This document shows positions 6,001-64,000 of a stretch of 64,000 nucleotides of DNA, in pieces. The notes below the pieces were generated by a model. That model was given only the letters and a program-made list of their open reading frames with translations, had not been told where the DNA came from and did not search any database. Position 1 is the stretch's first letter. Every line of letters starts with the position of its first letter. A program made the translations under genes and the position numbers. The stretch covers positions 620,001-684,000 of the forward strand of contig BROI01000001.1 in the NCBI GenBank assembly GCA_027923505.1. Reading direction: 5' to 3'. This DNA comes from Mayamaea pseudoterrestris (lineage: Eukaryota).

Positions 6001-9000
6001 TATTGGTGACAACTTGTCACCAGTCTCAGCCTGCAGATGCCGTGACATTCAAACGCCCCTACAGCAGGCCATGTATACACCCAAATGACACCAGAATGGT
6101 GCCAACATCATTATTCAGGCTGCGCTACAAGATGGTATGCCTGGCTAGTGTCTCAGGGGACGGCAATGATATTGGTGACAACTTGTCACCAGTCTCAGCC
6201 CGCAGATGCCGTGACATTCAAACGCCCCTACAGCAGGCCCTGTAGTACACCCAAATGACACCAGAATGGTGCCAACATCATTATTCAGGCTGCGCTACAA
6301 GATGGTATGCCTGGCTAGTGTCTCAGGGGACGGCAATGATATTGGTGACAACTTGTCACCAGTCTCAGCCTGCAGATGCCGTGACATTCAAACGCCCCTA
6401 CAGCAGGCCATGTATACACCCAAATGACACCAGAATGGTGCCAACATCATTATTCAGGCTGCGCTACAAGATGGTATGCCTGGCTAGTGTCTCAGGGGAC
6501 GGCAATGATATTGGTGACAACTTGTCACCAGTCTCAGCCCGCAGATGCCGTGACATTCAAACGCCCCTACAGCAGGCCATGTATACACCCAAATGACACC
6601 AGAATGGTGCCAACATCATTATTCAGGCTGCGCTACAAGATGGTATGCCTGGCTAGTGTCTCAGGGGACGGCAATGATATTGGTGACAACTTGTCACCAG
6701 TCTCAGCCCGCAGATGCCGTGACATTCAAACGCCCCTACAGCAGGCCATGTATACACCCAAATGACACCAGAATGGTGCCAACATCATTATTCAGGCTGC
6801 GCAACAAGATGGTATGCCTGGCTAGTGTCTCAGGGGACGGCAATGATATTGGTGACAACTTGTCACCAGTCTCAGCCCGCAGATGCCGTGACATTCAAAC
6901 GCCCCTACAGCAGGCCCTGTAGGTGCCCAAATGACACCAGAATGGTGCCAACATCATTATTCAGGCTGCGCTACAAGATGGTATGCCTGGCTAGTGTCTC
7001 AGGGGACGGCAATGATATTGGTGACAACTTGTCACCAGTCTCAGCCTGCAGATGCCGTGACATTCAAACGCCCCTACAGCAGGCCATGTATACACCCAAA
7101 TGACACCAGAATGGTGCCAACATCATTATTCAGGCTGCGCTACAAGATGGTATGCCTGGCTAGTGTCTCAGGGGACGGCAATGATATTGGTGACAACTTG
7201 TCACCAGTCTCAGCCCGCAGATGCCGTGACATTCAAACGCCCCTACAGCAAGCCCTGTATACACCCAAATGACACCAGAATGGTGCCAACATCATTATTC
7301 AGGCTGCGCTACAAGATGGTATGCCTGGCTAGTGTCTCAGGGGATGGCAATGATATTGGTGACAACTTGTCACCAGTCTCAGCCTGCAGATGCCGTGACA
7401 TTCAAACGCCCCTACAGCAGGCCCTGTATACACCCAAAATACACCAGAATGGTGCCAACATCATTATTCAGGCTGCCCTACAAGATGGTATGCCTGGCTA
7501 GTGTCTCAGGGGACGGCAATGATATTGGTGACAACTTGTCACCAGTCTCAGCCTGCAGATGCCGTGACATTCAAACGCCCCTACAGCAGGCCATGTATAC
7601 ACCCAAATGACACCAGAATGGTGCCAACATCATTATTCAAATTGCGCTACAAGATGGTATGCCTAGCTATTGTCTCAGGGGACAGCAATGATATTGGTGA
7701 CAACTTGTCACCAGTCTCAGCCTGCAGATGCCGTGACATTCAAACGCCCCTACAGCAGGCCATGTATACAACCAAATAACACCAGAATGGTGCCAACATC
7801 ATTATTCAGGCTGCGCTACAAAATGGTATGCCTGGATATTGTCTCAGGGGATGGCAATGATATTGGTGACAACTTGTCACCAGTCTCAGCCTGCAGATGC
7901 CGTGACATTCAAACGCCCCTACCGTACAGCAGGCCATGTATACACCCAAATGACACCAGAATGGTGCCATGATCATTATACAAACTGCGCCACAAGATGG
8001 TATGCCTAGCTATTGTCTCAGGGGACAGCAATGATATTGGTAACAACTTGTCACCAGTCTCAGCCCGCGGATGCCGTGACATTCAAACGCCCCTAGAACA
8101 GGCCATGAGTATACCCAAATGACACCAGAATGGTGCCAACATCATTATTCAGGCTGCGCTACAAGATGGTATGCCTGGCTAGTGTCTCAGGGGATGGCAA
8201 TGATATTGGTGACAACTTGTCACCAGTCTCAGCCTGCAGATGCCGTGACATTCAAACGCCCCTACAGCAGGCCATGTATACACCCAAATGACACCAGAAT
8301 GGTGCCAACATCATTATTCAAATTGCGCTACAAGATGGTATGCCTGGCTAGTGTCTCAGGGGACGGCAATGATATTGGTGACAACTTGTCACCAGTCTCA
8401 GCCTGCAGATGCCGTGACATTCAAACGCCCCTACAGCAGGCCATGTATACACCCAAATGACACCAGAATGGTGCCAACATCATTATTCAGGCTGCGCAAC
8501 AAGATGGTATGCCTGGCTAGTGTCTCAGGGGACGGCAATGATATTGGTGACAACTTGTCACCAGTCTCAGCCTGCAGATGCCGTGACATTCAAACGCCCC
8601 TACAGCAGGCCCTGTAGGTGCCCAAAATACACCAGAATGGTGCCAACATCATTATTCAGGCTGCGCTACAAGATGGTATGCCTGGCTAGTGTCTCAGGGG
8701 ATGGCAATGATATTGGCGACAACTTGTCACCAGTCTCAGCCCGCAGATGCCGTGACATTCAAACGCCCCTACAGCAAGCCATGTAGGTGCCCAAAATACA
8801 CCAGAATGGTGCCAACATCATTATTCAGGCTGCGCTACAAGATGGTATGCCTGGCTAGTGTCTCAGGGGACGGTAATGATATTGGTGACAACTTGTCACC
8901 AGTCTCAGCCTGCAGATGCCGTGACATTCAAATGCCCCTACAGCAGGCCATGTATACACCCAAATGACACCAGAATGGTGCCAACATCATTATTCAGGCT

Positions 9001-12000
9001 GCGCTACAAGATGGTATGCCTGGCTAGTGTCTCAGGGGACGGCAATGATATTGGTGACAACTTGTCACCAGTCTCAGCCTGCAGATGCCGTGACATTCAA
9101 ACGCCCCTACAGCAGGCCATGTATACACCCAAATGACACCAGAATGGTGCCAACATCATTATTCAGGCTGCGCAACAAGATGGTATGCCTGGCTAGTGTC
9201 TCAGGGGATGGCAATGATATTGGTGACAACTTGTCACCAGTCTCAGCCTGCAGATGCCGTGACATTCAAACGCCCCTACAGCAGGCCATGTATACACCCA
9301 AATGACACCAGAATGGTGCCAACATCATTATTCAGGCTGCGCTACAAGATGGTATGCCTGGCTAGTGTCTCAGGGGACAGCAATGATATTGGTGACAACT
9401 TGTCACCAGTCTCAGCCCGCAGATGCCGTGACATTCAAACGCCCCTACAGTAAGCCCTGTAGGTGCCCAAAATACACCAGAATGGTGCCAACATCATTAT
9501 TCAGGCTGCGCTACAAGATGGTATGCCTGGCTAGTGTCTCAGGGGATGGCAATGATATTGGTGACAACTTGTCACCAGTCTCAGCCTGCAGATGCCGTGA
9601 CATTCAAACGCCCCTACAGCAGGCCATGTATACACCCAAATGACACCAGAATGGTGCCAACATCATTATTCAAGCTGCCCTACAAGATGGTATGCCTGGC
9701 TAGTGTCTCAGGGGACGGCAATGATATTGGTGACAACTTGTCACCAGTCTCAGCCCGCAGATGCCGTGACATTCAAACGCCCCTACAGCAAGCCATGTAT
9801 ACACCCAAAATACACCAGAATGGTGCCAACATCATTATTCAGGCTGCGCTACAAGATGGTATGCCTGGCTAGTGTCTCAGGGGACGGCAATGATATTGGT
9901 GACAACTTGTCACCAGTCTCAGCCTGCAGATGCCGTGACATTCAAACGCCCCTACAGCAGGCCATGTATACAACCAAAATACACCAGTGGTGCCAACACA
10001 TTACACGCGCAACAAGAATGGTATGCCTGCTAGTTGATCCCGTTACAAAATCACCAAGACGACTTTTTGGACCGACGCGAGCCAGCACCTCGGCCGTCAC
10101 ATTCAAACGCCCTTACAGCGACGCCAGTCTCCAACCATCATGACACCAGAATGGTGCCAACATCATTATTCAGGCTGCGCAACAAGATGGTATGCCTGGC
10201 TAGTGTCTCAGGGGATGGCAATGATATTGGTGACAACTTGTCACCAGTCTCAGCCTGCAGATGCCGTGACATTCAAACGCCCCTACAGCAGGCCATGTAT
10301 ACACCCAAATGACACCAGAATGGTGCCAACATCATTATTCAGGCTGCGCTACAAGATGGTATGCCTGGCTAGTGTCTCAGGGGATGGCAATGATATTGGT
10401 GACAACTTGTCACCAGTCTCAGCCCGCAGATGCCGTGACATTCAAATGCCCCTACAGCAGGCCATGTATATACCCAAATGACACCAGAATGGTGCCAACA
10501 TCATTATTCAGGCTGCGCTACAAGATGGTATGCCTGGCTAGTGTCAGCGGAAAGGCAGTATAGGTGACAACTTGTCACCAGTCTCAGCCTGCAGATGCCG
10601 TGACATTCAAACGCCCCTACAGCAGGCCATGTATACACCCAAATGACACCAGAATGGTGCCAACATCATTATTCAGGCTGCGCTACAAGATGGTATGCCT
10701 GGCTAGTGTCTCAGGGGACGGCAATGATATTGGTGACAACTTGTCACCAGTCTCAGCCCGCAGATGCCGTGACATTCAAACGCCCCTAGAACAGGCCATG
10801 AGTATAGGCACCAAAGTGACACCAGAATGGTGCCAACATCATTATTCAGGCTGCGCTACAAGATGGTATGCCTGGCTAGTGTCTCAGGGGACGGCAATGA
10901 TATTGGTGACAACTTGTCACCAGTCTCAGCCTGCAGATGCCGTGACATTCAAACGCCCCTACAGCAGGCCATGTATACACCCAAATGACACCAGAATGGT
11001 GCCAACATCATTATTCAGGCTGCGCTACAAGATGGTATGCCTGGCTAGTGTCTCAGGGGACGGCAATGATATTGGTGACAACTTGTCACCAGTCTCAGCC
11101 TGCAGATGCCGTGACATTCAAACGCCCCTACAGCAGGCCATGTATACACCCAAATGACACCAGAATGGTGCCAACATCATTATTCAGGCTGCGCTACAAG
11201 ATGGTATGCCTGGCTAGTGTCTCAGGGGACGGCAATGATATTGGTGACAACTTGTCACCAGTCTCAGCCTGCAGATGCCGTGACATTCAAACGCAACCCT
11301 ACAGCAGGCCATGTATGCACCCAAATGACACCAGAATGGTGCCAACATCATTATTCAGGCTGCGCTACAAGATGGTATGCCTGGCTAGTGTCTCAGGGGA
11401 CGGCAATGATATTGGTGACAACTTGTCACCAGTCTCAGCCCGCAGATGCCGTGACATTCAAACGCCCCTACAGCAGGCCATGTATACACCCAAATGACAC
11501 CAGAATGGTGCCAACATCATTATTCAGGCTGCGCTACAAGATGGTATGCCTGGCTAGTGTCTCAGGGGACGGCAATGATATTGGTGACAACTTGTCACCA
11601 GTCTCAGCCTGCAGATGCCGTGACATTCAAACGCCCCTACAGCAGGCCATGTATACACCCAAATGACACCAGAATGGTGCCAACATCATTATTCAGGCTG
11701 CGCAACAAGATGGTATGCCTGGCTAGTGTCTCAGGGGATGGCATATATGGTGACAACTTGTCACCAGTCTCAGCCTGCAGATGCCGTGACATTCAAACGC
11801 CCCTACAGCAGGCCATGTATACCCCACCAGACTGGTGCCAAGCATCATTATTCAGGCTGCGCTACAAGATGGTATGCCTGGCTTGTGTCTCAGGGGATGG
11901 CAATATTGGTGACAACTGCACCAGTCTGCCTGCAGATGCCGTGACATTCAAACGCCCCTACAGCAGGCCATGTATACACCCAAATGACACCAGAATGGTG

Positions 12001-15000
12001 CCAACATCATTATTCAGGCTGCGCTACAAGATGGTATGCCTGGCTAGTGTCTCAGGGGATGGCAATGATATTGGTGACAACTTGTCACCAGTCTCAGCCT
12101 GCAGATGCCGTGACATTCAAACGCCCCTACAGCAGGCCATGTATACACCCAAATGACACCAGAATGGTGCCAACATCATTATTCAGGCTGCGCTACAAGA
12201 TGGTATGCCTGGCTAGTGTCTCAGGGGACGGCAATGATATTGGTGACAACTTGTCACCAGTCTCAGCCTGCAGATGCCGTGACATTCAAACGCCCCTTCA
12301 GCAGGCCATGTATACACCCAAATGACACCAGAATGGTGCCAACATCATTATTCAGGCTGCGCTACAAGATGGTATGCCTGGCATGTCTCAGGGGATGGCA
12401 ATGATATTGGTGACAACTTGTCCCCAGTCTCAGCCTGCAGATGCCGTGACATTCAAACGCCCCTACAGCAGGCCATGTGTACACCCAAATGACACCAGAT
12501 TGGTGCCAACATCATTATTCAGGCTGCGCTACAAGATGGTATGCCTGGCTAGTGTCTCAGGGGACGGCAATGATATTGGTGACAACTTGTCACCAGTCTC
12601 AGCCTGCAGATGCCGTGACATTCAAACGCCCCTACAGCAAGCCCTGTATATGCCCAAAATACACCAGAATGGTGCCAACATCATTATTCAGGCTGCGCTA
12701 CAAGATGGTATGCCTGGCTAGTGTCTCAGGGGACGGCAATGATATTGGTGACAACTTGTCACCAGTCTCAGCCCGCAGATGCCGTGACATTCAAACGCCC
12801 CTACAGCAGGCCATGTATTCACCCAAATGACACCAGAATGGTGCCAACATCATTATTCAGGCTGCGCTACAAGATGGTATGCCTGGCTAGTGTCTCAGGG
12901 GATGGCAATGATATTGGTGACAACTTGTCACCAGTCTCAGCCTGCAGATGCCGTGACATTCAAACGCCCCTACAGCAGGCCATGTATACACCCAAATGAC
13001 ACCAGAATGGTGCCAACATCATTATTCAGGCTGCGCTACAAGATGGTATGCCTGGCTAGTGTCTCAGGGGATGGCAATGATATTGGTGACAACTTGTCAC
13101 CAGTCTCAGCCCGCAGATGCCGTGACATTCAAACGCCCCTACAGCAGGCCATGTATACACCCAAATGACACCAGAATGGTGCCAACATCATTATTCAGGC
13201 TGCGCTACAAGGATGGTATGCCTCGGGCATTGGACTCGTCTCAGCCGGAGTGACATAGCCCAAAAGGGGCAATGATATTGGTGACAACTTGTCACCAGTC
13301 TCAGCCTGCAGATGCCGTGACATTCAAACGCCCCTACAGCAGGCCATGTAGATGCCCAAATGACACCAGAATGGTGCCAACATCATTATTCAGGCTGCGC
13401 AACAAGATGGTATGCCTGGCTAGTGTCTCAGGGGACGGCAATGATATTGGTGACAACTTGTCACCAGTCTCAGCCTGCAGATGCCGTGACATTCAAACGC
13501 CCCTACAGCAGGCCATGTATACACCCAAATGACACCAGAATGGTGCCAACATCATTATTCAGGCTGCGCAACAAGATGGTATGCCTGGCTAGTGTCTCAG
13601 GGGACGGCAATGATATTGGTGACAACTTGTCACCAGTCTCAGCCTGCAGATGCCGTGACATTCAAACGCCCCTACAGCAGGCCATGTATACACCCAAATG
13701 ACACCAAAATGGTGCCAACATCATTATTCAGGCTGCGCTACAAGATGGTATGCCTGGCTAGTGTCTCAGGGGACGGCAATGATATTGGTGACAACTTGTC
13801 ACCAGTCTCAGCCTGCAGATGCCGTGACATTCAAACGCCCCTACAGCAGGCCATGTTTACACCCAAATGACACCAGAATGGTGCCAACATCATTATTCAG
13901 GCTGCGCTACAAGATGGTATGCCTGGCTAGTGTCTCAGGGGACGGCAATGATATTGGTGACAACGTGTCACCAGTCTCAGCCTGCAGATGCCGTGACATT
14001 CCCTCCCGCCCCGCGGCCTCCCCAAATGACACCAGAATGGTGCCAACATCATTATTCAGGCTGCGCTACAAGATGGTATGCCTGGCTAGTGTCTCAGGGG
14101 GCGGCAATGATTTGGTGACAACTTGTCACCAGTCTCAGCCGCAGATGCCGTGACATTCAAACGCCCCTACAGCAGGCCATGTATACACCCAAGTGACACC
14201 TGAATGGTGCCAACATCATTATTCAGGCTGCGCTACAAGATGGTATGCCTGGCTAGTGTCTCGGGGGACGGCAATGATATTGGTGACAACTTGTCACCAG
14301 TCTCAGCCTCGCAGATGCCGTGACATTCAAGCGCCCCTACAGCAGGCCATGTCCTGTATACACCCAAATGACACCAGAATGGTGCCAACATCATTATTCG
14401 GCTGCGCTACAAGATGGTATGCCTGGCTAGTGTCTCAGGGGACGGCAATGATATTGGTGACAACTTGTCACCAGTCTCAGCCCGCGGATGCCGTGACATT
14501 CAAGCGCCCCTACAGCAGGCTATGTATACACCCAATTGACACTAGAATGGTGCCAACATCATTATTCAGGCTGCGCTACAAGATGGTATGCCTGGCTAGT
14601 GTCTCAGGGGACGGCAATGATATTGGTGACAACTTGTCACCAGTCTCAGCCTGCAGATGCCGTGACATTCAAACGCCCCTACAGCAGGCCATGTTACACC
14701 CAAATGACACCGGAATGGTGCCAACATCATTATTCAGGCTGCGCTACAAGATGGTATGCCTGGCTGGTGTCTCAGGGGACGGCAATGATATTGGTGACAA
14801 CTTGTCACCAGTCTCCAGCCCGCGGATGCCGTGACATTCAAACGCCCCTACAGCAGGCCATGTATGCACCCAAATGACACCAGAATGGTGCCAGCATCAT
14901 TATTCAGCTGCGCTTCAGATGGTATGCCTGGCTGGTGTCTCAGGGGACAGCAATGATGTTGGTGACAACTTGTCAGTCTCACCTTCGCGGATGCCGTGAC

Positions 15001-50680: not shown

Positions 50681-50809
50681 GATTGTTTTGCTACCGGTAG
50701 TGTATGATGGAGGATCCAGATGTGTAGTGTTGCCGCTGCCAAAAATTAATTTGTACCGATGGCTGTCGTTCAAAACCGGAGCGACGTAAACTATCTTGGC
50801 ACTGCATAT

Positions 50810-51450
50810 GGCATGATTTTTGAATGTCCATACCTTGAGCCATGTGTATGCCCAAATCAAACCAGAATGGTGCTAACATTCTTTTTTCAGGTGCGCTACA
50901 AGATGGATTGCCTGGCTGGTCCCTTGGTAGACTGCAATGTAATTGGTGACAAGTTGTTACCAATCTCAGCCAGCAGATGCAGTGATTTTAGAATGCCCAT
51001 ACCTTGAGCCATGCGTATGTCCAATTCAAGCCAGAATGGTGCTAACATCCTAATTTCAGGTGCGCTACAAGATGGATTGCCTGGCTGGTCCCTTGGTAGA
51101 CTGCAATGTGATTGGTGACAACTTGTCACCAATCTCAGCCAGCAGATGCCGTCATTTTTAAACGCCCCCACCTTGTGCCATGTGTATGTCCAAATCAAGC
51201 CAGAATTGTGCTAACATCCATATATCAGGTGCGCTACAAGATGCATTGCCTGGCTGGTCCCTTGGTAGACTGCAATGTGATTGGTGACAACTTGCTCTCA
51301 TTTCTCACCCCATGCCGTTTCCAATCAAGCACCGGTGCCATTCATATCATAAAAATCAGCCTGCTGGCTTTGGTGATTGGTGACAACTTGTCCCAATCTC
51401 AGCCAGCAGATGCCGTCATTTTCAAAAGCCCCTACCTTGTGCCACGTGGC
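50810..51450 (+). repeat. 169-bp satellite, diverged terminal subfamily C, ~3.5 monomers
   Basis: Diagnostic GGATTGCCTGGCTGGTCCCTTGGTAGACTGCAATGTGATTGG and ACCTTGAGCCATGTGTATGCCCAAATCAA; 169-bp period (50832, 51001). Confidence 0.9.
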
Positions 51451-51454
51451 AACA

Positions 51455-54400
51455 TCTGCGGATGGATTGACTGGCTGGCATCTGCTGAGCTGAGACTGGT
51501 GAGAAGATGTCACCAATTACATTGCCATCCCCTGAGACACCAGCCAAGCCTACCATCTTGTAGCGCAGCCTGAATAATGACGTTAGCACCATTCGGGTGT
51601 ATTTTGGGCTCCTACAGGGCTTGCTGTAGGGGTGTTTGAATGTCACGGCATCTGTGGGCTGAGACTGGTGACAAGTTGTCACCAAATACATTGCTATCCC
51701 CTGAGACACCAGCAAAGCCTACCATCTTGTAGCGCTGCCTGAATAATGATGTTGGCACCATTCTGGTGTATTTTGGGCACCTACAGGGCTTGCTGCAGGG
51801 GCGTTTGAATGTCACGGCATCTGCGGGCTGAGACTGGTGACAAGTTGTCACCAAATACATTGCCATCCCCTGAGACACCAGCCAAGCCTACCATCTTGTA
51901 GCGCAGCCTGAATAATGATGTTGGCACCATTCTGGTGTATTTTGGGCACCTACAGGGCTTGCTGTAGGGGCGTTTGAATGTCACGGCATCTGCGGGCTGA
52001 GACTGGTGACAAGTTGTCACCAAATACATTGCCATCCCCTGAGACACCAGCCAAGCCTACCATCTTGTAGTGCAGCCTGAATAATGACGTTGGCACTATT
52101 CTGGTGTATTTTGGGCACCTACAGGGCTTGCTGTAATGGCGTTTGAATGTCACGGCATCTGCGGGCTGAGACTGGTGACAAGTTGTCACCAAATACATTG
52201 CCATCCCCTGAGACACCAGCCAAGCCTACCATCTTGTAGCGCAGCCTGAATAATGACGTTAGCACCATTCAGGTGTATTTTGGGCTCCTACAGGGCTTGC
52301 TGTAGGGGTGTTTGAATGTCACGGCATCTGCGGGCTGAGACTGGTGACAAGTTGTCACCAAATACATTGCCATCCCCTGAGACACCAGCCAAGCCTACCA
52401 TCTTGTAACGCTGCCTGAATAATAAGGTTGGCACCATTCTGGTGTATTTTGGGCACCTACAGGGCTTGCTGTAGGGGGGTTTGAATGGCACGGCATCTGC
52501 GGGCTGAGACTGGTGACAAGTTGTCACCAAATACATTGCCATCCCCTGAGACACCAGCCAAGCCTACCATCTTGTAGCGCAGCCTGAATAATGATGTTGG
52601 CACCACTCTGGTGTATTTTGGGCACCTACAGGGCTTGCTGTAGGGGCGTTTGAATGTCACGGCATCTGCGGGCTGAGACTGGTGACAAGTTGTCACCAAA
52701 TACATTGCCATCCCCTGAGACACCAGCCAAGCCTGCGATCTTGTAGCGCAGCCTGGATAATGAGGTTGGCACCATTCTGGTGTATTTTGGGCACCTACAG
52801 GGCTTGCTGCAGGGGCGTTTGAATGTCACGGCATCTGCGGGCTGAGACTGGTGACAAGTTGTCACCCATCCCCTGAGACACCAGCCAAGCCTACCATCTT
52901 GTAGCGCCGCCTGAATAATGAAGTTGGCACCATTCTGGTGTATTTTGGGCACCTACAGGGCTTGCTGTAGGGGCGTTTTGTGACAAGTTGTCACCAAATA
53001 CATTGCCATCCCCTGAGACACCAACCAAGCCTACCATCTTGTAGCGCAGCCTGAATAATGATGTTGGCACCATTCTGGTGTATTTTGGGCACCTACAGGG
53101 CTTGCTGTAGGGGCGTTTGAATGTCACGGCATCTGCGGGCTGAGACTGGTGACAAGTTGTCACCAAATACATTGCCATCCCCTGAGACACCAGCCAAGCC
53201 TACCATCTTGTAGCGCAGCCTGAATAATGAGGTTGGCACCATTCTGGTGTATTTCGGGCACCTACAGGGCTTGCTGTTGGGGCGTTTGAATGTCACGGCA
53301 TCTGCCGGCTGAGACTGGTGACAAGTTGTCACCAAATACATTGCCATCCCCTGAGACACCAGCCAAGCCTACCATCTTGTAGCGCTGCCTGAATAATGAG
53401 GTTGGCACCATTCTGGTGTATTTTGGGCACCTACAGGGCTTGCTGTAGGGGCGTTTGAATGTCACGGCATCTGCGGGCTGAGACTGGTGACAAGTTGTCA
53501 CCAAATACATTGCCATCCCCTGAGACACCAGCCAAGCCTACGATCTTGTAGCGCAGCCTGAATAATGAGGTTGGCACCATTCTGGTGTATTTTGGGCACC
53601 TACAGGGCTTGCTGTAGGGGCGTTTGAATGTCACGGCATCTGCGGGCTGAGACTGGTGACAAGTTGTCACCAAATACATTGCCATCCCCTGAGACACCAG
53701 CCAAGCCTACCATCTTGTAGCGCAGCCTGAATAATGATGTTGGCACCATTCTGGTGTATTTTGGGCACCTACAGGGCTTGCTGTAGGGGCGTTTGAATGT
53801 CACGGCATCTGCGGGCTGAGACTGGTGACAAGTTGTCACCAAATACATTGCCATCCCCTGAGACACCAGCCAAGCCTACCATCTTGTAGCGCAGCCTGAA
53901 TAATGAGGTTGGCACCATTCTGGTGTATTTTGGGCACCTACAGGGCTTGCTGTAGGGGCGTTTGAATGTCACGGCATCTGCGGGCTGAGACTGGTGACAA
54001 GTTGTCACCAAATACATTGCCATCCCCTGAGACACCAGCCAAGCCTACCATCTTGTAGCGCAGCCTGAATAATGAGGTTGGCACCATTCTGGTGTATTTT
54101 GGGCACCTACAGGGCTTGCTGTAGGGGCGTTTGAATGTCACGGCATCTGCGGGCTGAGACTGGTGACAAGTTGTCACCAAATACATTGCCATCCCCTGAG
54201 ACACCAGCCAAGCCTACCATCTTGTAGCGCAGCCTGAATAATGAGGTTGGCACCATTCTGGTGTATTTTGGGCACCTACAGGGCTTGCTGTAGGGGCGTT
54301 TGAATGTCACGGCATCTGCGGGCTGAGACTGGTGACAAGTTGTCACCAAATACATTGCCATCCCCTGAGACACCAGCCAAGCCTACCATCTTGTAGCGCA

Positions 54401-57000
54401 GCCTGAATAATGAGGTTGGCACCATTCTGGTGTATTTTGGGCACCTACAGGGCTTGCTGTAGGGGCGTTTGAATGTCACGGCATCTGCGGGCTGAGACTG
54501 GTGACAAGTTGTCACCAAATACATTGCCATCCCCTGAGACACCAGCCAAGCCTACCATCTTGTAGCGCAGCCTGAATAATGATGTTGGCACCATTCTGGT
54601 GTATTTTGGGCACCTACAGGGCTTGCTGTAGGGGCGTTTGAATGTCACGGCATCTGCGGGCTGAGACTGGTGACAAGTTGTCACCAAATACATTGCCATC
54701 CCCTGAGACACCAGCCAAGCCTACCATCTTGTAGCGCAGCCTGAATAATGATGTTGGCACCATTCTGGTGTATTTTGGGCACCTACAGGGCTTGCTGTAG
54801 GGGCGTTTGAATGTCACGGCATCTGCGGGCTGAGACTGGTGACAAGTTGTCACCAAATACATTGCCATCCCCTGAGACACCAGCCAAGCCTACCATCTTG
54901 TAGCGCAGCCTGAATAATGATGTTGGCACCATTCTGGTGTATTTTGGGCACCTACAGGGCTTGCTGTAGGGGCGTTTGAATGTCACGGCATCTGCGGGCT
55001 GAGACTGGTGACAAGTTGTCACCAAATACATTGCCATCCCCTGAGACACCAGCCAAGCCTACCATCTTGTATCGCAGCCTAAATAATGATGTTGGCACCA
55101 TTCTGGTGTATTTTGGGCACCTACAGGGCTTGCTGTAGGGGCGTTTGAATGTCACGGCATCTGCGGGCTGAGACTGGTGACAAGTTGTCACCAAATACAT
55201 TGCCATCCCCTGAGACACCAGCCAAGCCTACCATCTTGTAGCGCTGCCTGAATAATGAGGTTGGCACCATTCTGGTGTGGTGTATTTTGGGCACCTACAG
55301 GGCTTGCTGTAGGGGCGTTTGAATGTCACGGCATCTGCGGGCTGAGACTGGTGACAAGTTGTCACCAAATACATTGCCATCCCCTGAGACACCAGCCAAG
55401 CCTACCATCTTGTAGCGCAGCCTGAATAATGACGTTGGCACCATTCTGGTGTATTTTGGGCACCTACAGGGCTTGCTGTGGTGAATGGCACGGCATCTGC
55501 GGGCTGAGACTGGTGACAAGTTGTCACCAAATACATTGCCATCCCCTGAGACACCAGCCAAGCCTACCATCTTGTAGCGCAGCCTGAATAATGAGGTTGG
55601 CACCATTCTGGTGTATTTTGGGCACCTACAGGGCTTGCTGTAGGGGCGTTTGAATGTCACGGCATCTGCGGGCTGAGACTGGTGACAAGTTGTCACCAAA
55701 TACATTGCCATCCCCTGAGACACCAGCCAAGCCTACCATCTTGTAGCGCAGCCTGAATAATGAGGTTGGCACCATTCTGGTGTATTTTGGGCACCTACAG
55801 GGCTTGCTGTAGGGGCATTTGAATGTCACGGCATCTGCAGGCTGAGACTGGTGACAAGTTGTCACCAAATACATTGCCATCCTAGACACCACCAAGCACC
55901 TGAGTCCTGACACCAGCCAATCTCCACCAACCTCTGTAGCTCAGCCTGAATAATGATGTTGGCACTATTCTGGTGTATTTTGGGCACCTACAGGGCTTGC
56001 TGTAGGGGCGTTTGAATGTCACGGCATCTGCGGGCTGAGACTGGTGACAAGTTGTCACCAAATACATTGCCATCCCCTGAGACACCAGCCAAGCCTACTA
56101 TCTTGTAGCGCAGCCTGAAGAATGAGGTTGGCACCATTTGGGTGTATTTTGGGCACCTACAGGGCTTGCTGTGGGGGCGTTTGAATGTCACGGCATCTGC
56201 AGGCTGAGACTGGTGACAAGTTGTCACCAAATACATTACCATCCCCTGAGACACCAGCCAAGCCTACTATCTTGTAGCGCAGCCTGAAGAATGAGGTTGG
56301 CACCATTCTGGTGTATTTTGGGCACCTACAGGGCGTGCTGTAGGGGCGTTTGAATGTCACAGCATCTGCGGGCTGAGACTGGTGACAAGTTGTCACCAAA
56401 TACATTGCCATCCCCTGAGACACCAGCCAAGCCTACCATCTTGTAGCGCAGCCTGAATAATGATGTTGGCACCATTCTGGTGTGTTTTGGGCACCTACAG
56501 GGCTTGCTGTGGGGGCATTTTCATGTCCCGGCATCTGCGGGCTGAGACTGGTGACAAGTTGTCACCAAATACATTGCCATCCCCTGAGACACCAGCCAAG
56601 CCTACCATCTTGTAGCGCAGCCTGAATAATGATGTTGGCACCATTCTGGTGTATTTTGGGCACCTACAGGGCTTGCTGTAGGGGCGTTTGAATGTCACGG
56701 CATCTGCGGGCTGAGACTGGTGACAAGTTGTCACCAAATACATTGCCGTCCCCTGAGACACCAGCCAAGCCTACCATCTTGTAGCGCAGCCTGAATAATG
56801 AGGTTGGCACGATTCTGGTGTATTTTGGGCACCTACAGATCGCTCTGAAGTTGTCACCAAATACATTGCCATCCCCTGAGACACCAGCCAAGCCTACCAT
56901 CTTGTAGCGCAGCCTGAATAATGAGGTTGGCACCATTCTGGGTATTTTGGGCACGCGGCCTGCAGCCGAGGACTTTTTGGCACCCTGTAGGGGCGTTTGA
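51455..57000 (-). repeat. 169-bp satellite, subfamily B, ~33 monomers
   Basis: Very homogeneous units with diagnostic GGTAGGCTTGGCTGGTGTCTC, GCAATGTATTTGG and CAAGCCCTGTAGGTGCCCAAAATAC; ORF spacing is 169 bp. Confidence 0.97.
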
Positions 57001-57350
57001 ATGTCACGGCATCTGCTGGCTGAGATTGGTGACAAGTTGTTACCAATCACATTGCCGTCTACCAAAGGCCCAGCCAGGCAACCCATCTTGTAGCGCACCT
57101 GAAATAAGGATGTTAGCACCACTCTGGTTTGATTTGGGCATACACATGACTCAAGGTATGGGCATTTGAAAATGACGGCATCTGCGGGCTGAGATTGGTG
57201 ACAAGTTGTCACCAATCACATTGCAGTCTACCAAGGGACCAGCCAGGCAATCCAACTTGTAGCGCACCTGGAATAAAGATGTTAGCACCATTCTAACTTG
57301 ATTTGGGCATACACATGGCTCAAGGTATAGACAATAGGAAATTACGGCAT
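57001..57350 (-). repeat. 169-bp satellite, terminal subfamily C, ~2 monomers
   Basis: Reverse complement of the 50810-51450 variant (CATTGCAGTCTACCAAGGGACCAGCCAGGCAATCC; CATACACATGGCTCAAGGTAT). Confidence 0.9.
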
Positions 57351-57467
57351 GAGCTCGATCTTGTCAACATATTGCATGACCCCGTCTGCTAACCTTTCAA
57401 AGTTTTACATTAGTAATTCATACCAAACAATTTACAAGTAGCTATAGCTTTGTTTAATGATTGATAA

Positions 57468-58646
57468 CTAGAAAATACCAAGACCAGTCGTGACAGCAAA
57501 GACAATGAACAAGCTACCTCCAATGAACCCCAACGCTCGCTCCGAAACATACTTTGCCAAGACGGCGCCACCCGACACGGCGATACCAGTCGCTAATGCA
57601 TGCGCGGCAATGGCTCCTCCAGCCACAGCCACGGGGTTTTGCGCGGCGCTCAACGCAATCGTTGACAGAAAGCTTCGGTCACCAAACTCGGCGGCAAAGA
57701 CGAGCGCGAAAATACTGGCCAATTGTCCCCACGGCGTCACTTGCTTGACACTTTTGGATCCTTCCACTGCTTCCTGCGCATCGGCAAACTCCTCGTCCAT
57801 GGTGGATGCGCCTGGTTCCATCTCAAAGGCTTCCTTAAGCGTTTTGATACCAAAGAACAAAAAGGCCAAGCATGCTGCAACATCATCCAGAGGAAATCCA
57901 TTGGCAAAACCATCAGGAACGGCGTGAAAGATTTGTCCAATTCCCACACACACGAGCGTCATGGCAGCCAGTGCCGCCATGGAACCTAGGAATGAAATGA
58001 GACGCGAAGTCTTGGCGCTCAATAGACCGGCAATGAAGAATGTCTTGTCTCCAATTTCCGATAAAAATACAAGAGAAAATGCTTGATAGAAACCAGTTTC
58101 ACTCAGACTGGATAGCCACACGGGAGTGGCAGCAACGCCAGGCAAGCTGATAGCGTTGGCGGCTGGTGCAATGAGGGATGATGCGGCGGTGGATAGAATG
58201 ACTGCCATGGCCATGGACAATGTTTTGCTTGCCATGCTGGTAGAAGAGCGAGTCGATACCGCAGCTGATGCAGATGATTCCATCAGTCGACATTCCGATT
58301 CTTCGGGCCTGCTCATTGTAAGCCGTGGCTGTTGCAGCCGCGACATGAGTGACGGTGCAGCTAAATGAGTTGATGAAACGGCGTTGATTGATGATGCACG
58401 AGATGTATGCAAAGGTTGCATTGAGCTTGAATATGAGAAAAGTGTGGGTTAGATGAATCTTCAGACATTTCTTCTCTCACTTAATCAAGATTGCCATTTC
58501 AAGGAACTATATCGGATCATGATCATGCAGAAAGGCCGATCGGTAGCGCAGAAAATGATGAGAATGACTTACCTAAACCCTCGTGCTGTCGATACAAGCA
58601 GCAAGCCTGCTAATATGCGAGTCATTCTGATAGCAAAAGATTTCAT
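57468..58646 (-). CDS. GDT1: GDT1/UPF0016-family Mn2+/Ca2+ transporter (PAM71/CMT1-like), plastid-targeted, two exons (58646-58573, 58425-57468), ~343 aa
   Basis: Two E-x-G-D-(K/R)-(T/S) motifs (FLSEIGDKTF, FAAEFGDRSF). Intron 58572-58426 has GTAAGT, a CTAAC branch point and AG. Splicing gives in-frame MKSFAIRMTRILAGLLLVSTARG-FSSMQPL..., i.e. signal peptide, Phe, then a Ser/Arg-rich transit peptide. Confidence 0.9.
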
Positions 58647-58961
58647 TCTGCTGTACTTGGTCGCTTCCGATGAGGCCGTCAAAGGTGCAAATGGATCATG
58701 GTCGAATTGACGACGGCGTTTGGAATTGCGACGATGGGCGCAAACGTGCGCAAACGTCATGTTGAGTCACGAGCGGACAACGATTCAATCGTACGTCTTC
58801 GTCCGTTTCTAAATTTTGACTGCTCGTGTGACCTAATAAGAGAGAGCACGACCTAACTGTAAATTAGGTAGGCCAAATTCAAGTTGTCACTTTATAGTTT
58901 GTCAAAGATGGCTGTTGAATGAAGTTATTAATTGAGGCAGCCTATGCTATGCATTGGAAGG

Positions 58962-61900
58962 TCAGATCCTTGCAGTTTGTAGGTTTTTGCCATGGCAGCC
59001 AGACTGGTGGATACTGGGGTGATAGTTGCCCCAGCATTGGATCAAAATGTCATCCGACATCATAGGAAACAGGTTAATTGGCTTAGCAGGCAAGGCTGAT
59101 GATCCTGTAGCCAAAGCATGGTGCACTGCTAGCACATTCAACAATGTGTTGAATGTGCGGAGTCTCATGGCACAATGCTGCGTTCCACACCACAATTGAC
59201 ATGACTAATGGTCAAATTGTATCATATGTATTTTAGTTACAATATTCTCGGGTCTGCAGGCCCTTCTGGCAGTCTGTGTACCAGGTGAGGTGCACCAATG
59301 GCGGATCCAACAAGTTATTGGATCTGCCGAGTCTCACCATGGCAGCCAGGCTGGTGGATATTGGGGTGATATTCACCCCAGCATTGGATCAAAATGTCAA
59401 CCAACATCATAGGAAACAGGTTAATTGGCTTAGCAGGCAAGGCTGATGACCCTGTAGCCAAAGCATGGTGCACTGCTAGCACATTCAACAACTTGTTGAA
59501 TGTGCGGAGTCTCATGGCACAATGCTGCGGTACACACCACAATTGACATGACTATTGGTCGAATTGTATCATATGTAATTTGGTTTCAATATTCTCGGGT
59601 CTGCAGGCCCTTCTGGCAGTTTGTATACCAGGTGAGGTGCACCACTAGCAGATCCAACAAGTTATTAGATCTGCCGAGTCTCACCATGGCAGCCAGGCTG
59701 GTGGATATTGGGGTGATAGTTACCACGGCATTGGATCAAAATGTCAATTATCATCATAGGAAACAGGCTGGATGGCTTAGCAGGCAAGTCTGATGACCCT
59801 GTAGCCAAAGCATGGTGCACTACTAGCACATTCAACAACTTGTTGAATGTGCGGAGTCTATGGCACAATGCTGCGTTCCACACCACAATTGACATGACTA
59901 TTGGTCGCATTGTTTTTTTATGTATTTTGGTTTCAATATTCTCGTGTCTGCAGGCCCTTCTGGCAGTCTGTGTACCACTTGAGGTGCACCGCTAGCAGAT
60001 CCAACAAGTTATTAGATCTGCCGAGTCTCACCAAGGCAGCCAGGCTGGTGGATATTGGGGTGATAGTTACCCCAGCATTGGATCAAAATGTCAATTAACA
60101 TCATAGGAAACAGGCTGGATGGCTTAGCAGGCAAGTCTGATGACCCTGTAGCCAAAGCATGGTGCACTACTAGCACATTCAACAACTTGTTGAATGTGCG
60201 GAGTCTCATGGCACAATGCTGCGTTCCACACCACAATTGACATGACTATTGGTCGCATTGTTTTTTATGTATTTTAGTTTCAATATTCTCGTGTCTGCAG
60301 GCCCTTCTGGCAGTCTGTGTACCAGTTGAGGTGCACCGCTGGCAGATCCAACAAGTTATAGGATCTGCCAAATCTCACCACGGCAGCCAGGCTGGTTGAT
60401 ACTGAGTTGATAGTCGCCACAGCATTGGATCAAATGTCAACCAACATCATAGGAAACAGGTTAATTGGCTTAGCAGGCAAGGCAGATGATCCTGTAGCCA
60501 AAGCATGGAGCACTACTAGCACATTCAACAACTTGTTGAATGTGCGGAGTCTCATGGCACAATGCTGCGTTCCACACCACAATTGACATGACTATTGGTC
60601 GAATTGTTTCATATGTAATTTGGTTTCAATAATCTTGGGTCTGCAGGCCCTTCTGGCAGTCTGTGTACCAGTTGAGGTGCACCGCTGGCAGATCCAACAA
60701 GTTAATGGATCTGCCGAGTCTCACCATGGCAGCCAGGCTGGTGAATACTGGGATGATAGTCACCCCAGCATTGGATCAAAATGTCCACCAACATCATAGG
60801 AAACAGATTAATTGGCTTAGCAGGCAAGGCTGATGATCCTGTAGCCAAAGCATGGTGCACTACTAGCACATTCAACAACTTGTTGAATGTGCGGAGTCTC
60901 ATGGCACAATACTGCGTTCCACACCACAATTGACATGACTATTGGTCGAATTGGGTCTGCAGGCCCTTCTGGCAGTCTGTGTACCAGTTGAGGTGCACCA
61001 CCATCTGATCCAACAAGTTAATGGATCTGCCGAGTCTCACCATGGCAGCCAGGCTGGTGAATACTGGGATGATAGTCACCCCAGCATTGGATCAAAATGT
61101 CCACCAACATCATAGGAAACAGATTAATTGGCTTAGCAGGCAAGGCTGATGATCCTGTAGCCAAAGCATGGTGCACTACTAGCACATTCAACAACTTGTT
61201 GAATGTGCGGAGTCTCATGGCACAATACTGCGTTCCACACCACAATTGATATGACTAATGATCCAATTGTTTCAAATGTATTTTGGTTACAATATTCTCA
61301 GGTCTGCAGGCCCTTCTGGCAGTCTGTGTACCAGTTGAGGTGCACCACCGTCTGATCCAACAAGTTAATGGATCTGCCGAGTCTCACCATGGCAGCCAGG
61401 CTGGTGGATATTGGGATGATAGTCACCCCAGCATTGGATCAAAATGTCCACCAACATCATAGAAAACAGGTTAATTGGCTTAGCAGGCAAGGCTGATGAT
61501 CCTGTAGCCAAAGCATGGAGCACTACTAGCACATTCAACAACTTGTTGAATGTGCGGAGTCTCATGGCACAATGCTGCGTTCCACACCACAATTGACATG
61601 ACTATTGGTCGAATTGTTTCATATGTATTTTGGTTTCAATATTCTCGGGTCTGCAGGCTCTTCTGGCAGTCTGTGTACCAGTTGAGGTGCACCACCGTTT
61701 GATCCAACAAGTTAATGGATCTGCCGAGTCTCACCATGGCAGCCAGGCTGGTGGATACTGGGATGATAGTCACCCCAGCATTGGATCAAAATGTCAACCA
61801 ACATCATAGGAACAGGTTAATTGGCTTAGCAGGCAAGGCAGATGACCCTGTAGCCAAAGCATGGTGCACTGCTAGCACATTCAACAACTTGTTGAATGTG

Positions 61901-63387
61901 CGGAGTCTCATGGCACAATTCCACACCACAATTGACATGACTAATGATCCAATTGTTTCATATGTAATTTGGTTTCAATATTCTTGGGTCTGCAGGCGAT
62001 TCTGGCAGTCTGTGTACCAGTTGAGGTGCACCGCTGGCAGATCCAACAAGTTAATGGATCTGCCGTGTCTCATCATGGCAGCCAGGCTGGTGGATATTGG
62101 GGTGATATTCACCCCAGCATTGGATCAAAATGTCAACCAACATCATAGAAAACAGGTTAATTGGCTAAGCAGGCAAGGCTGATGATCCTGTAGCCAAAGA
62201 ATGGAGCACTACTAGCACATTCAACAACTTGTTGAATGTGCGGAGTCTCATGGCACAATGCTGCGTTACACACCACAATTGACATGACTATTGGTCGAAT
62301 TGTATCATCTGTAATTTGGTTTCAATATTCTTGGGTCTGCAGGCGATTCTGGCAGTCTGTGTACTAGTTGAGGTGCACCGCTGGCAGATCCAACAAGTTA
62401 TTGGATCTGCCAAATCTCACCATGGCAGCCAGGCTGGTGAATACTGGGATGATAGTCACCCCAGCATTGGATCAAAATGTCAATTAACATCATATGAAAC
62501 AGGTTAATTGGCTTAGCAGGCAAGGCTGATGATCCTGTAGCCAAAGCATGGAGCACTACTAGCACATTCAACAACTTGTTGAATGTGCGGAGTCTCATGG
62601 CACAATGCTGCGTCCCACACCACAATTGACATGACTATTGGTCGAATTGTATCCTATGTAATTTGGTTTCAATATTCTTGGGTCTGCAGGCGATTCTGGC
62701 AGTCTGTGTACCAGTTGAGGTGCACCGCTGGCAGATCCAACAAGTTAATGGATCTGCCGAGTCTCACCATGGCAGCCAGGCTGGTGAATACTGGGATGAT
62801 AGTCACCCCAGCATTGGATCAAAATGTCAACCAACATCATAGAAAACAGGTTAATTGGCTTAGCAGGCAAGGCTGATGATCCTGTAGCCAAAGCATGGAG
62901 CATTACTAGCACATTCAACAACTTGTTGAATGTGCGGAGTCTCCTGGCACAATGCTGTGTTCCACACCACAATTGACATGACTATTGGTCAAATTGTTTC
63001 ATATGTAATTTGGTTTCAATATTCTTGGGTCTGCAGGCGATTCTGGCAGTCTGTGTACCAGTTGAGGTGCACCGCTGGCAGATCCAACAAGTTATAGGAT
63101 CTGCCAAATCTCACCATGGCAGCCAGGCTGGTGGATATTGGGATGATAGTCACCCCAGCATTGGATCAAAATGTCAACCAACATCATAGGAAACAGGCTG
63201 GATGGCTTAGCAGGCAAGGCAGATGATCCTGTAGCCAAAGCATGGTGCACTACTAGCACATTCAACAACTTGTTGAATGTGCGGAGTCTCATGGCACAAT
63301 GCTGCGTTTCACACCACAATTGACATGACTATTGGTCCAATTGTTTCGTATGTATTTTGGTTTCAATATTCTTGGGTCTGCAGGCGC
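58962..63387. repeat. 347-bp tandem satellite, ~12.8 units
   Basis: Period of 347 bp (59195/59542; 62625/62972/63319); one unit has a 31-bp deletion near 60950. Each unit holds two long palindromes. Confidence 0.96.
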
Positions 63388-63426
63388 TAGGCCAAGAAAC
63401 AGCGGTAGATCACTAGGACTTATGAC

Positions 63427-63680
63427 TGCGTACATCTTATCTAGTCCTGGAATCATCAGTGCCTACATCTGTTATTAATGCAGAATCGCACTCATCAATA
63501 TTCCGGCTATGATGAAGTCCGAAATCGTTAAAGTCAAGGCACATTATGTGTCTGCGTATATCTTATCTAGTCCTGGAATCAGCGGTGCCTACATCTTGTT
63601 AACGATGCAGAATCGCACTCATTTATATTCCGGCTAAGATGAAGTCCGAAATCGTTAAAAATTCAAGGCACATTATGTGT
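63427..63680 (+). repeat. ~125-bp direct duplication
   Basis: CTGCGTA(C/T)ATCTTATCTAGTCCTGGAATCA...CAAGGCACATTATGTGT at 63427 and 63552. Confidence 0.85.
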
Positions 63681-63698
63681 TGCTGTTTTGCTATAAAT

Positions 63699-64000
63699 TC
63701 ACGTCAACGATGCCTTTCTCTTTTTGCCCTTTTTCTTCTTTGATTGAACAAGTGGCACCAAGTCAAAGTTCAAGTCAATGAGCTTACCGCCAGCAACTTT
63801 GACTGGATCTTCACTTGGAAGACTGTCGGCCGTTGCGTTAGCGAATGCTTCTCCCCATTGGCGCACCATTTCGGCAATATGCTCGAGAAAGTCGTTTGAT
63901 CCGTCGGGAAAGGGAGACACACCAAGAAACTGGCCTTCAGATTTTATCTTGCCGTTGCGGACATTGTATTCGGCTGGAAACTCCAAGGGCTTTAAAGCAT
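63699..64000 (-). CDS. 3' end of an unknown protein with a basic C-terminus (possible NLS)
   Basis: Open frame from the window edge with protein-like composition, ending QSKKKKGKKRKASLT*. Confidence 0.5.
   Translation of the reverse strand, partial: ALKPLEFPAEYNVRNGKIKSEGQFLGVSPFPDGSNDFLEHIAEMVRQWGEAFANATADSLPSEDPVKVAGGKLIDLNFDLVPLVQSKKKKGKKRKASLT

What the first reader, a model, noticed from the sequence alone, without database searches (positions are those of the whole stretch)
58962..63387. The 347-bp satellite has two palindromes sharing the 169-bp satellite's core, spaced 178 + 169 bp
Seen: each 347-bp unit has GGCAGATCCAACAA-G-TTATTGGATCTGCC (best copy centred at 62397; variants at 59314 and 59661) and a perfect GCACATTCAACAA-C-TTGTTGAATGTGC (centre 59492). 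Centres alternate 178 and 169 bp apart, and both palindromes are followed by GTCTCA 17 nt from the centre. The 169-bp family has TGGTGACAA-C-TTGTCACCA-GTCTCA. All three share an ACAA-S-TTRT core with a 1-nt spacer but have different outer arms that are still self-complementary. CCAACATCAT also occurs in both families. Inference: the 347-mer is an old dimer, and dyad symmetry, core and ~170-bp spacing are conserved while the sequence turns over. This would fit a dimeric protein site, a cruciform or a nucleosome-phasing signal.
Basis: partly seen in the sequence, partly recalled or inferred. Interest (0 to 1): 0.72.

Follow-up and report, generated by a model that had tools for sequence, protein, structure and literature searches.

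The report
Conserved hairpin sites in diatom satellites
Two unrelated tandem DNA repeats of a diatom each carry one short mirror-symmetric site per nucleosome-sized unit that changes more slowly than the rest of the repeat, but the nine-letter core said to unite the repeats is not fixed, so symmetry matters more than that exact core.

Summary
The 347-bp unit is an old direct dimer with two related palindromes 169/178 bp apart; at this locus the second is imperfect in all 12 copies. The 169-bp family is not detectably homologous.

The 'shared core' is not fixed. It occurs in 3 of 12 satellite lineages sampled. Each of the three has a form without it: ACCA-W-TGGT (244 sites genome-wide against 144 with the core), AGAA-S-TTCT (54), and a core-less sister of a third, 181-bp family, where the core is not conserved at all.

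What holds is the dyad. Mirrored double changes and complementary flips of the 1-nt spacer point to arm-to-arm template switching. The arms also change far more slowly than the rest in both lineages, with a gradient centred on the 169 palindrome. Unbiased arm copying does not explain that, so biased repair, conversion or selection is needed. Protein binding, phasing and a centromere role are untested. The scan noted the 347 dyads before on other DNA. Interest 0.38.

The parts
58962..63387 (+). 347-bp satellite array, about 12.7 units, each a diverged direct dimer (169 + 178 bp); one unit has a 31-bp deletion and one a 7-bp deletion
59479..59505 (.). Palindrome A, 13-bp arms, 1-nt spacer, centre 59492; further centres 59145 (damaged), 59839, 60186, 60532, 60879, 61195, 61542, 61888, 62228, 62575, 62922, 63269
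   Evidence: perfect in 12 of 13
62383..62411 (.). Palindrome B, best copy (13 of 14 pairs), centre 62397; further centres 59314, 59661, 60008, 60355, 60701, 61017, 61364, 61711, 62050, 62744, 63091
   Evidence: imperfect in 12 of 12 here
1..18163 (+). 169-bp satellite arrays (main subfamily) with one 9-bp-arm palindrome per unit; continue upstream of the window
18394..21426 (-). 169-bp satellite array, opposite orientation
50804..51318 (+). Divergent 169c copies; neighbouring units in the same orientation have centre G (50953) and C (51122), a spacer flip
51477..57350 (-). 169-bp satellite array (second subfamily), ending in 169c copies with arms extended to 12 bp
57468..58448 (-). GDT1-family Ca2+/H+ antiporter gene lying between the two satellites (neighbour, not part of the repeat)
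   Evidence: PF01169, E 7e-32; diatom homologues
32112..37865 (+). Broken copia-type retrotransposon frames in the same block (neighbour)
   Evidence: (RVT_2, E 5e-6, below the family cut-off)

Best explanation
These are ordinary nucleosome-length satellites of a pennate diatom in which two unrelated lineages (169 and 347-type) each carry one hairpin-prone palindrome per monomer. Shown: the dyad is kept symmetric, and it is the slowest-changing part of the unit. Inferred step 1: polymerase template switching between the arms copies a change to the other arm or removes it, and flips the 1-nt spacer. Inferred step 2: a second process favours copies with an intact hairpin, most likely repair or gene conversion centred on the hairpin that is biased towards the common form, possibly helped by selection on the structure. 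That gives the slow arms and the gradient on both sides. The structure matters more than the exact core: the match of ACAA-S-TTGT between 169 and 347 is coincidence or a very old exchange, and in the 181 family it is probably a decaying remnant of a 347-type palindrome.
For: Mirrored changes: among 967 copies of 169, 11 have both members of a pair changed and 10 of these still pair (0.38 expected if independent; they come from only two or three lineages). Across 465 347-type palindromes the commonest states pair at +-2, +-7 and +-10 in two different ways each. Spacer flips: ACCA-TGGT centres are T 61, A 13, C 0, G 0; AGAA-TTCT centres are C 12, G 12 (some loci picked because they hold these forms); in the main 169 form C-to-G (8 loci) is as common as C-to-T (8 loci) although C-to-G is the rarest background change (1.8 against 7.8 per site). 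Arm homogenisation plus spacer inversion is the published signature of template switching (PMC8604942, passages). Slow arms: 92-96% identity between 347/346/356 subfamilies against 64-69% far from the centre; 94% against 70-73% for 169 vs 169c; 77-81% against 54-60% between the dimer halves. Gradient in 169: singleton rate 0.61, 0.76, 0.79, 0.92, 1.14 of expectation with distance, similar on both sides, trinucleotide-matched; minimum 7-12 bp from the centre for 8 of 8 window starts, lower near than far in 34 of 40 loci; 5 of 6 substitution classes are reduced. Core replaced. Families meet at palindromes in single cases.
Against: The second process is not shown. Array ends are not significantly enriched at palindromes (9 of 60, 9 of 30, 9 of 43; p 0.33, 0.07, 0.06). 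The short-term deficit is strong only in 169; in 347A it is weak in the stricter tests (7 seen against 11.5 expected, P 0.11) and absent in 347B (ratio 0.96), although B still folds a hairpin. The imperfect form of B (TTAT) has itself been amplified (110 of 229 sampled B copies), so an intact dyad is not needed for spread. Breaks at perfect hairpins should erode them over time (own reasoning). The core match between 169 and 347 has a chance of about 0.5% per pair, and the core recurs in another lineage with P about 0.06; this reading leaves that to luck. Rare variants in the assembly may include sequencing errors.
Confidence: 0.5

Rival explanations
1. The palindromes are binding sites of a homodimeric protein with tolerant recognition (common to all perfect forms: Y-R-A-S-M-A, any centre, mirrored), kept by selection or drive in both lineages; template switching only supplies the symmetric variants.
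For: Arms are conserved in sequence, not only in symmetry, at every time depth. Variants shared by two or more copies are about nine times rarer in the arms than far away (14 of 615 against 484 of 2436 locus-positions), singletons only about two times, the pattern expected of purifying selection (shared variants are not independent between loci). Only 1 of 18 arm positions has a minor allele above 2%, against 80 of 106 far positions. Two unrelated lineages share the inner 4 bp and the 1-nt spacer.
Against: The core and the centre base have been replaced in an amplified form that outnumbers the core form (244 against 144 sites). 9 of 12 lineages lack the core. In the 181 family the core window is among the most variable (rank 135 of 156) and less conserved than the rest against its sister (78% against 85%). 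The core is not enriched outside satellites (3 seen, 6.9 expected in 408 kb). No candidate protein was identified.
Confidence: 0.22
2. Nucleosomes are phased on the repeat with the palindrome at a fixed place (dyad or linker), and the mutation or repair rate varies once per unit; the conservation is a chromatin footprint, not selection.
For: The 169 variant profile is one smooth cycle per unit (amplitude 0.25-0.35, p 0.002). Unit lengths of 168-186 bp recur in 9 of 12 lineages.
Against: The abundant 181 family shows no such cycle (p 0.06-0.55). The reduction covers 5 of 6 substitution classes, whereas nucleosome effects are recalled to be base-specific. A twofold mutation difference does not match the roughly fourfold slower divergence of the arms. 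No nucleosome data or repeat length for this alga was found.
Confidence: 0.12
3. Purely neutral: chance palindromes kept symmetric by unbiased template switching, then amplified; the shared core and the conservation are coincidence.
For: Mirrored changes and spacer flips; no homology between 169 and 347 outside the core; most families do without a palindrome; perfect short inverted repeats are reported to be conserved by template switching in bacteria (PMC5941160, passages).
Against: Unbiased copying reverts a change half the time and doubles it half the time, so the rate per site should not fall (own reasoning), yet it falls in two independent lineages, and mirrored doubles are far too few (10 copies against about 190 single arm changes). 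It does not predict the gradient in the flanks.
Confidence: 0.1
4. The palindromes are abutted terminal inverted repeats or a rolling-circle origin of a small mobile element, so the arrays are tandem transposition products and the core is the recognition site.
For: A conserved inner end with covarying outer arms resembles terminal repeats (recalled). Arrays are short and scattered over many contigs. The genome holds four Helitron-like Rep frames without stops. Satellite arrays carried by Helentrons are known in oysters (PMC7492417, search listing only).
Against: Array ends do not fall at one fixed position in the palindrome. The regions downstream of 2 of the 4 Helitron-like frames hold no satellite sequence and no such palindrome. 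In the dimer, symmetry is kept across each centre, not between the two ends of a half-unit.
Confidence: 0.06

Closest known systems
Dyad-symmetry-rich centromeric satellites, non-B-DNA model (Kasinathan and Henikoff 2018, PMC5889037; passages read)
   Same: Nucleosome-length tandem repeats with short dyads predicted to form hairpins or cruciforms, proposed to act by structure when no protein box is present.
   Different: That survey dealt with dyads under 10 bp in CENP-A-defined centromeres. Here one 9-14-bp-arm dyad sits at a fixed place per monomer, arrays form at least six islands on one contig, and no CENH3 data exist.
Template switching at short inverted repeats (Abraham and Hazkani-Covo 2021, PMC8604942, passages; Lavi et al. 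2018, PMC5941160, passages)
   Same: Arm homogenisation, arm extension, reversible spacer inversion on long arms, and conservation of perfect repeats.
   Different: Described in yeast genes and bacterial non-coding DNA, not satellites; spacers were 2-5 bp, here 1 nt; the flank gradient is not part of that model.
CENP-B box type motifs shared across satellite families (CENP-B box; nematode and other box-like cases recalled)
   Same: A short motif in otherwise unrelated satellites, more conserved than its surroundings.
   Different: Here the motif is palindromic, has been replaced in amplified subfamilies, is missing from most lineages, and has no known protein.
Described diatom centromeres (Phaeodactylum, bioRxiv 10.1101/096016, passages; Fistulifera, bioRxiv 10.1101/2021.11.10.468027, passages)
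   Same: Same group of organisms; gene-poor regions.
   Different: Those are low-GC regions without large repeats. These arrays are 45-52% GC tandem repeats at many sites per contig.
Dimeric (higher-order) satellites such as alpha-satellite dimers (recalled)
   Same: Unit made of two diverged monomers of nucleosome length.
   Different: Monomers are only 54-60% alike away from the palindrome; no centromere role shown.

Membership tests
Satellite DNA | High-copy, head-to-tail, non-coding arrays at many loci | tested here: met
   (7,799 exact 169 palindromes, about 1.3 Mb or 4.3% of the assembly); no Rfam match in window 50000-64000; both families present in short-read contigs of 4 of 4 runs laid, two studies, one possibly the source sample
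Dimeric (higher-order) satellite | Unit of two homologous, diverged monomers in direct orientation | tested here: met
   z 2.7, 5.6, 2.7 without the palindromes; cross-subfamily pairs z 1.7-5.0
Protein-box motif shared across satellite families (CENP-B-box-like) | Same motif kept in all subfamilies and most families | tested here: not met
   3 of 12 lineages; replaced forms at 244 and 54 sites; 280 of 432 copies in the 181 family
Protein-box motif shared across satellite families (CENP-B-box-like) | Motif more conserved than the rest of the unit | tested here: inconclusive
   Met for the whole palindrome in 169 and between 347-type subfamilies; not met in 181; no short-term deficit in 347B
Protein-box motif shared across satellite families (CENP-B-box-like) | A protein binds the motif | not testable with these tools
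   Needs EMSA or pull-down
Inverted repeats maintained by template switching | Mirrored changes on both arms | tested here: met
Inverted repeats maintained by template switching | Spacer inversion | tested here: met
   6 locus-level flips against 1.8 expected, P 0.011
Dyad-rich centromeric satellite | Dyads able to form hairpins | tested here: met
   (prediction only)
Dyad-rich centromeric satellite | CENH3 occupancy | not testable with these tools
   No ChIP data
Dyad-rich centromeric satellite | One block per chromosome (if monocentric) | tested here: not met
   Contig C1 has islands near 0.61-0.76, 1.24, 1.69, 2.16-2.21, 2.37 and 2.70-2.72 Mb
Described diatom centromeres | Low GC, no large repeats | tested here: not met
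   GC 0.45-0.52 in the array bins; definition
Tandem products of a TIR or Helitron element | Array ends at a fixed position in the palindrome | tested here: not met
Tandem products of a TIR or Helitron element | Autonomous partner with matching ends | tested here: inconclusive
   Only 3.5 kb at the downstream side of 2 of 4 Helitron-like frames were read; no match

The most novel reading that the evidence does not exclude
Two unrelated satellite lineages of a diatom have converged on one functional dyad per nucleosome (a cruciform or a tolerant dimeric-protein site) that phases chromatin and seeds kinetochore or heterochromatin at many sites per chromosome, a repeat-based system unlike the low-GC centromeres described in other diatoms; the 181 family is a third lineage that is losing the element.
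Probability: 0.13. Interest if true: 0.75.

Novelty: new variant of a known kind. Interest (0 to 1): 0.38.

Why it matters
Satellites with dyads are common, and whether such dyads do anything is an open question. This genome offers a clean test case: thousands of copies, natural symmetric variants that change the core (ACAA, AGAA, ACCA), half-converted intermediates, and abundant control families without a palindrome. The arms evolve about four times more slowly than the rest in two unrelated lineages, which neutral arm copying alone does not predict. If binding or cruciform assays follow symmetry and not sequence, that would directly support structure-based satellite function. If not, the case still documents biased repair at short palindromes.

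Tried and rejected
Homology of 169 and 347: global, local, centre-anchored and profile tests all at background. Inverted-dimer reading of the 347 unit: z 6.9 with the core fell to 2.2, -0.2 and 0.5 in three subfamilies without it. Colinear homology of 169 and 181: borderline only (local z 3.3 among 55 pairs; global z 0.6-3.0 in both orientations); not claimed. GTCTCA and CCAACATCAT as shared elements: compatible with chance. Looser cores in more families: CAASTT in 6 of 12 (null mean 2.7, P 0.024) and AASTT in 7 of 12 (null 3.8, P 0.037), with patterns chosen after the fact and including the three known lineages; not accepted. Array ends at palindromes: not significant. Core enrichment outside satellites: none. 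Helitron link: none in the two stretches read. Structured RNA: no Rfam match. Expression: no RNA holder listed, which is no evidence either way. Read depth is not a copy number and was not used as one; its variant table was cut (275 rows hidden), so spacer flips could not be checked in short reads. Artefact controls for the variant deficit: CpG sites removed, positions near gaps masked, gap-free copies only, homopolymers removed, trinucleotide matching, four window starts, clean against noisy loci; the 169 deficit stayed in all. Two scripts had offset errors and were redone: the 181 part. Literature: searches listed no paper on palindromic satellites in diatoms; one search listed no diatom nucleosome repeat length; one search listed nothing. 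The library holds only openly licensed papers and preprints.
Full report
Setting. The window is C1:620,001-684,000 of a 30.6-Mb assembly in 41 contigs. The gene between the two satellites is a GDT1 antiporter; its named homologues are diatom proteins, and the identical top hit is labelled Mayamaea pseudoterrestris by NCBI. The block holds 169-bp arrays, broken copia-type frames and the 347-bp array. All 11 satellite consensus units tested are CpG-poor (observed/expected 0.05-0.49), which suggests long methylation (inference). Both families are present in short-read contigs of 4 of 4 runs laid, from two studies, one of which may be the source sample, so they are not assembly artefacts.

Observation. 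There are 25 centres between 59145 and 63269, alternating 169 and 178 bp with four exceptions in 24 intervals. Palindrome A is perfect in 12 of 13 copies. Palindrome B is imperfect in 12 of 12, and half of these read TTAA, outside the proposed ACAA-S-TTRT core. GTCTCA is at +17 in 20 of 25 sites but at +10 in the 169 family. All three hairpins fold better than shuffles, and arms of 9 bp or more occur in 0.6% of shuffled units.

The dimer is real. With the palindromes cut out, the two halves align in direct orientation in the window's subfamily and in two related subfamilies of 346 and 356 bp (z 2.7, 5.6, 2.7); an inverted arrangement was not reproduced. Palindromes A and B are homologous, 21 of 26 arm positions identical, with mirrored swaps at +-7 and +-10. 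The 169 family shows no similarity to either half outside the 9-nt core in any test.

Is the core shared more widely? A tandem search for the core found a third family of 181 bp. A census of 935 kb taken beside known arrays gave 12 unrelated lineages; 3 carry the core. The chance that one of the 10 other lineages holds it is 0.06, and the chance that two independent palindromes share their inner 4 bp is about 0.005, so the match is not trivially expected, but it was picked after the fact. In the 181 family the arms are only 4-5 bp, the region does not fold, 280 of 432 copies have the strict core, the window is among the most variable of the unit (rank 135 of 156), and an abundant 352-bp sister reads CCAA-A-TTAT. 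Positions 5-15 on both sides of the 181 core resemble the 347-type palindrome (11.2 of 22 against 5.4, p 0.002 among 48 tests; sister p 0.011-0.016), so it may be a decayed copy; whole-unit homology is not significant.

The core turns over inside the two palindromic lineages. Genome-wide, palindrome A occurs as ACAA-C-TTGT at 144 sites and as ACCA-W-TGGT at 244 sites: a mirrored change inside the core plus a change of the centre from C/G to A/T, in the commoner form. The 169 palindrome occurs at 7,799 sites and as the mirrored AGAA-S-TTCT at 54 sites on at least 21 contigs (50 sites listed). Half-changed intermediates exist for both. Outside satellites the core is not enriched (3 against 6.9 in 408 kb). 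A fixed sequence-specific site common to the families is therefore unlikely.

What keeps the symmetry. Among 967 copies of 169, 11 have both members of a pair changed and 10 of them still pair, against 0.38 expected; they trace to two or three lineages. Some subfamilies have arms extended to 12 bp in two different mirrored ways. The spacer flips to its complement: T 61 and A 13 with no C or G in the ACCA form; C 12 and G 12 in the AGAA form (some loci were chosen for holding these forms); locus-level C-to-G flips number 6 against 1.8 expected in 169 and 347A (P 0.011). Equally perfect ACAA arrays flip rarely (124 C, 2 G), which argues against an assembly artefact. Arm homogenisation with spacer inversion is the published signature of template switching (PMC8604942, passages). 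This step is inferred from its signatures, not observed.

What that does not explain. Unbiased arm copying should leave the rate per site unchanged (own reasoning). Yet the arms are 92-96% identical between 347-type subfamilies against 64-69% far from the centre, 94% against 70-73% between 169 subfamilies, and 77-81% against 54-60% between the dimer halves; flanks are intermediate in all nine comparisons, while the 181 core region is less conserved than its rest. Within 169 arrays, singletons in the arms are 0.48-0.61 of background after controls, shared variants are about nine times rarer (14 of 615 against 484 of 2436), and the rate rises smoothly on both sides over about 45 bp, with the minimum 7-12 bp from the centre for 8 of 8 window starts and in 34 of 40 loci. 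Against this: 347A shows the deficit only weakly in the strict test (7 against 11.5; P 0.11), 347B shows none, and the imperfect B form has been amplified.

Mechanism. Most likely (0.5): a hairpin-prone dyad, kept symmetric by template switching and preserved by hairpin-centred, biased repair or conversion, perhaps with selection on structure. Preferential correction of short repeats is reported in bacteria (PMC5941160, passages). Single junctions fit local exchange: a 169/181 junction lies in a 10-bp match that spans the core and recurs 8 times (one origin, then copied), and a two-unit 169 piece sits inside a palindrome B with both ends in 169 palindromes. Array ends overall are not significantly enriched there. 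Rivals: a tolerant dimeric protein site (0.22), a nucleosome-phase effect (0.12), pure neutrality (0.10), transposon ends or a rolling-circle origin (0.06; four Helitron-like frames exist, but the two downstream stretches read show no link).

Comparison. It works like the dyad-bearing satellites of the non-B-DNA model (PMC5889037, passages) but cannot be filed as centromeric: contig C1 alone has at least six islands, and described diatom centromeres are low-GC and lack large repeats. It fails the test for a CENP-B-box-like shared motif. Searches listed no report of palindromic satellites in diatoms; only openly licensed papers are covered.

Earlier scan notes described the compensatory dyads of the 347-type unit on other contigs at least five times, favoured arm copying, and called a shared module mostly illusory. 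My tests agree on those points and add the genome-wide counts of core-less forms, the spacer flips, and the rate deficit that neutral copying does not cover.

Verdict. Observation partly confirmed; dimer supported; shared fixed core not supported; conserved dyad real and only partly explained. New variant of a known kind, interest 0.38.

Noticed in passing
L059:8698, L060:8587, L063:6179, L065:4151, L070 (G000 C7, C10, C12): The same 169/181 junction, inside a 10-bp match spanning the core and with the same small deletion, occurs 8 times; composite satellite blocks appear to be copied between chromosomes.
   Followed up: partly
L021:7389-7722 (G000 C2): A two-unit piece of the 169 satellite is inserted in the right arm of a 347-type palindrome B, and both of its ends lie in 169 palindromes.
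   Followed up: partly
181-bp family, e.g. L034; G000 C1:724,651-756,000: Very abundant third satellite; its core region resembles a decayed 347-type palindrome; its 352-bp dimeric sister lacks the core.
   Followed up: yes
L033, L041, L031/L104, L093, L038, L090, L108, L116, L120: Nine further unrelated tandem families (352, 173, 171/360, 168, 179, 174, 184, 371, 235 bp) without long palindromes; most have units or half-units of 168-186 bp.
   Followed up: partly
G000 C5:431,186, C25:90,197, C12:211,543, C8:402,308: Four Helitron-like Rep matches in open frames of 790-2373 aa without stops.
   Followed up: partly
L059:6378, L065:742 and 2030, L062:3175: Several array ends abut sequences that begin with TG and recur at different loci, like LTR ends inserted into the satellites.
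   Followed up: no
window 63426-63680 and 42855-43116: Short 127-bp (2 copies) and 85-bp (3 copies) tandem repeats; the 85-bp unit lacks the core.
   Followed up: no
window 57468-58448 (-): An apparently intact GDT1 gene sits directly between two satellite arrays, about 120 bp from one and 510 bp from the other.
   Followed up: partly
352b family, L033: Its variant profile also shows a weak one-cycle pattern (p 0.014-0.11) although it has no long palindrome.
   Followed up: no
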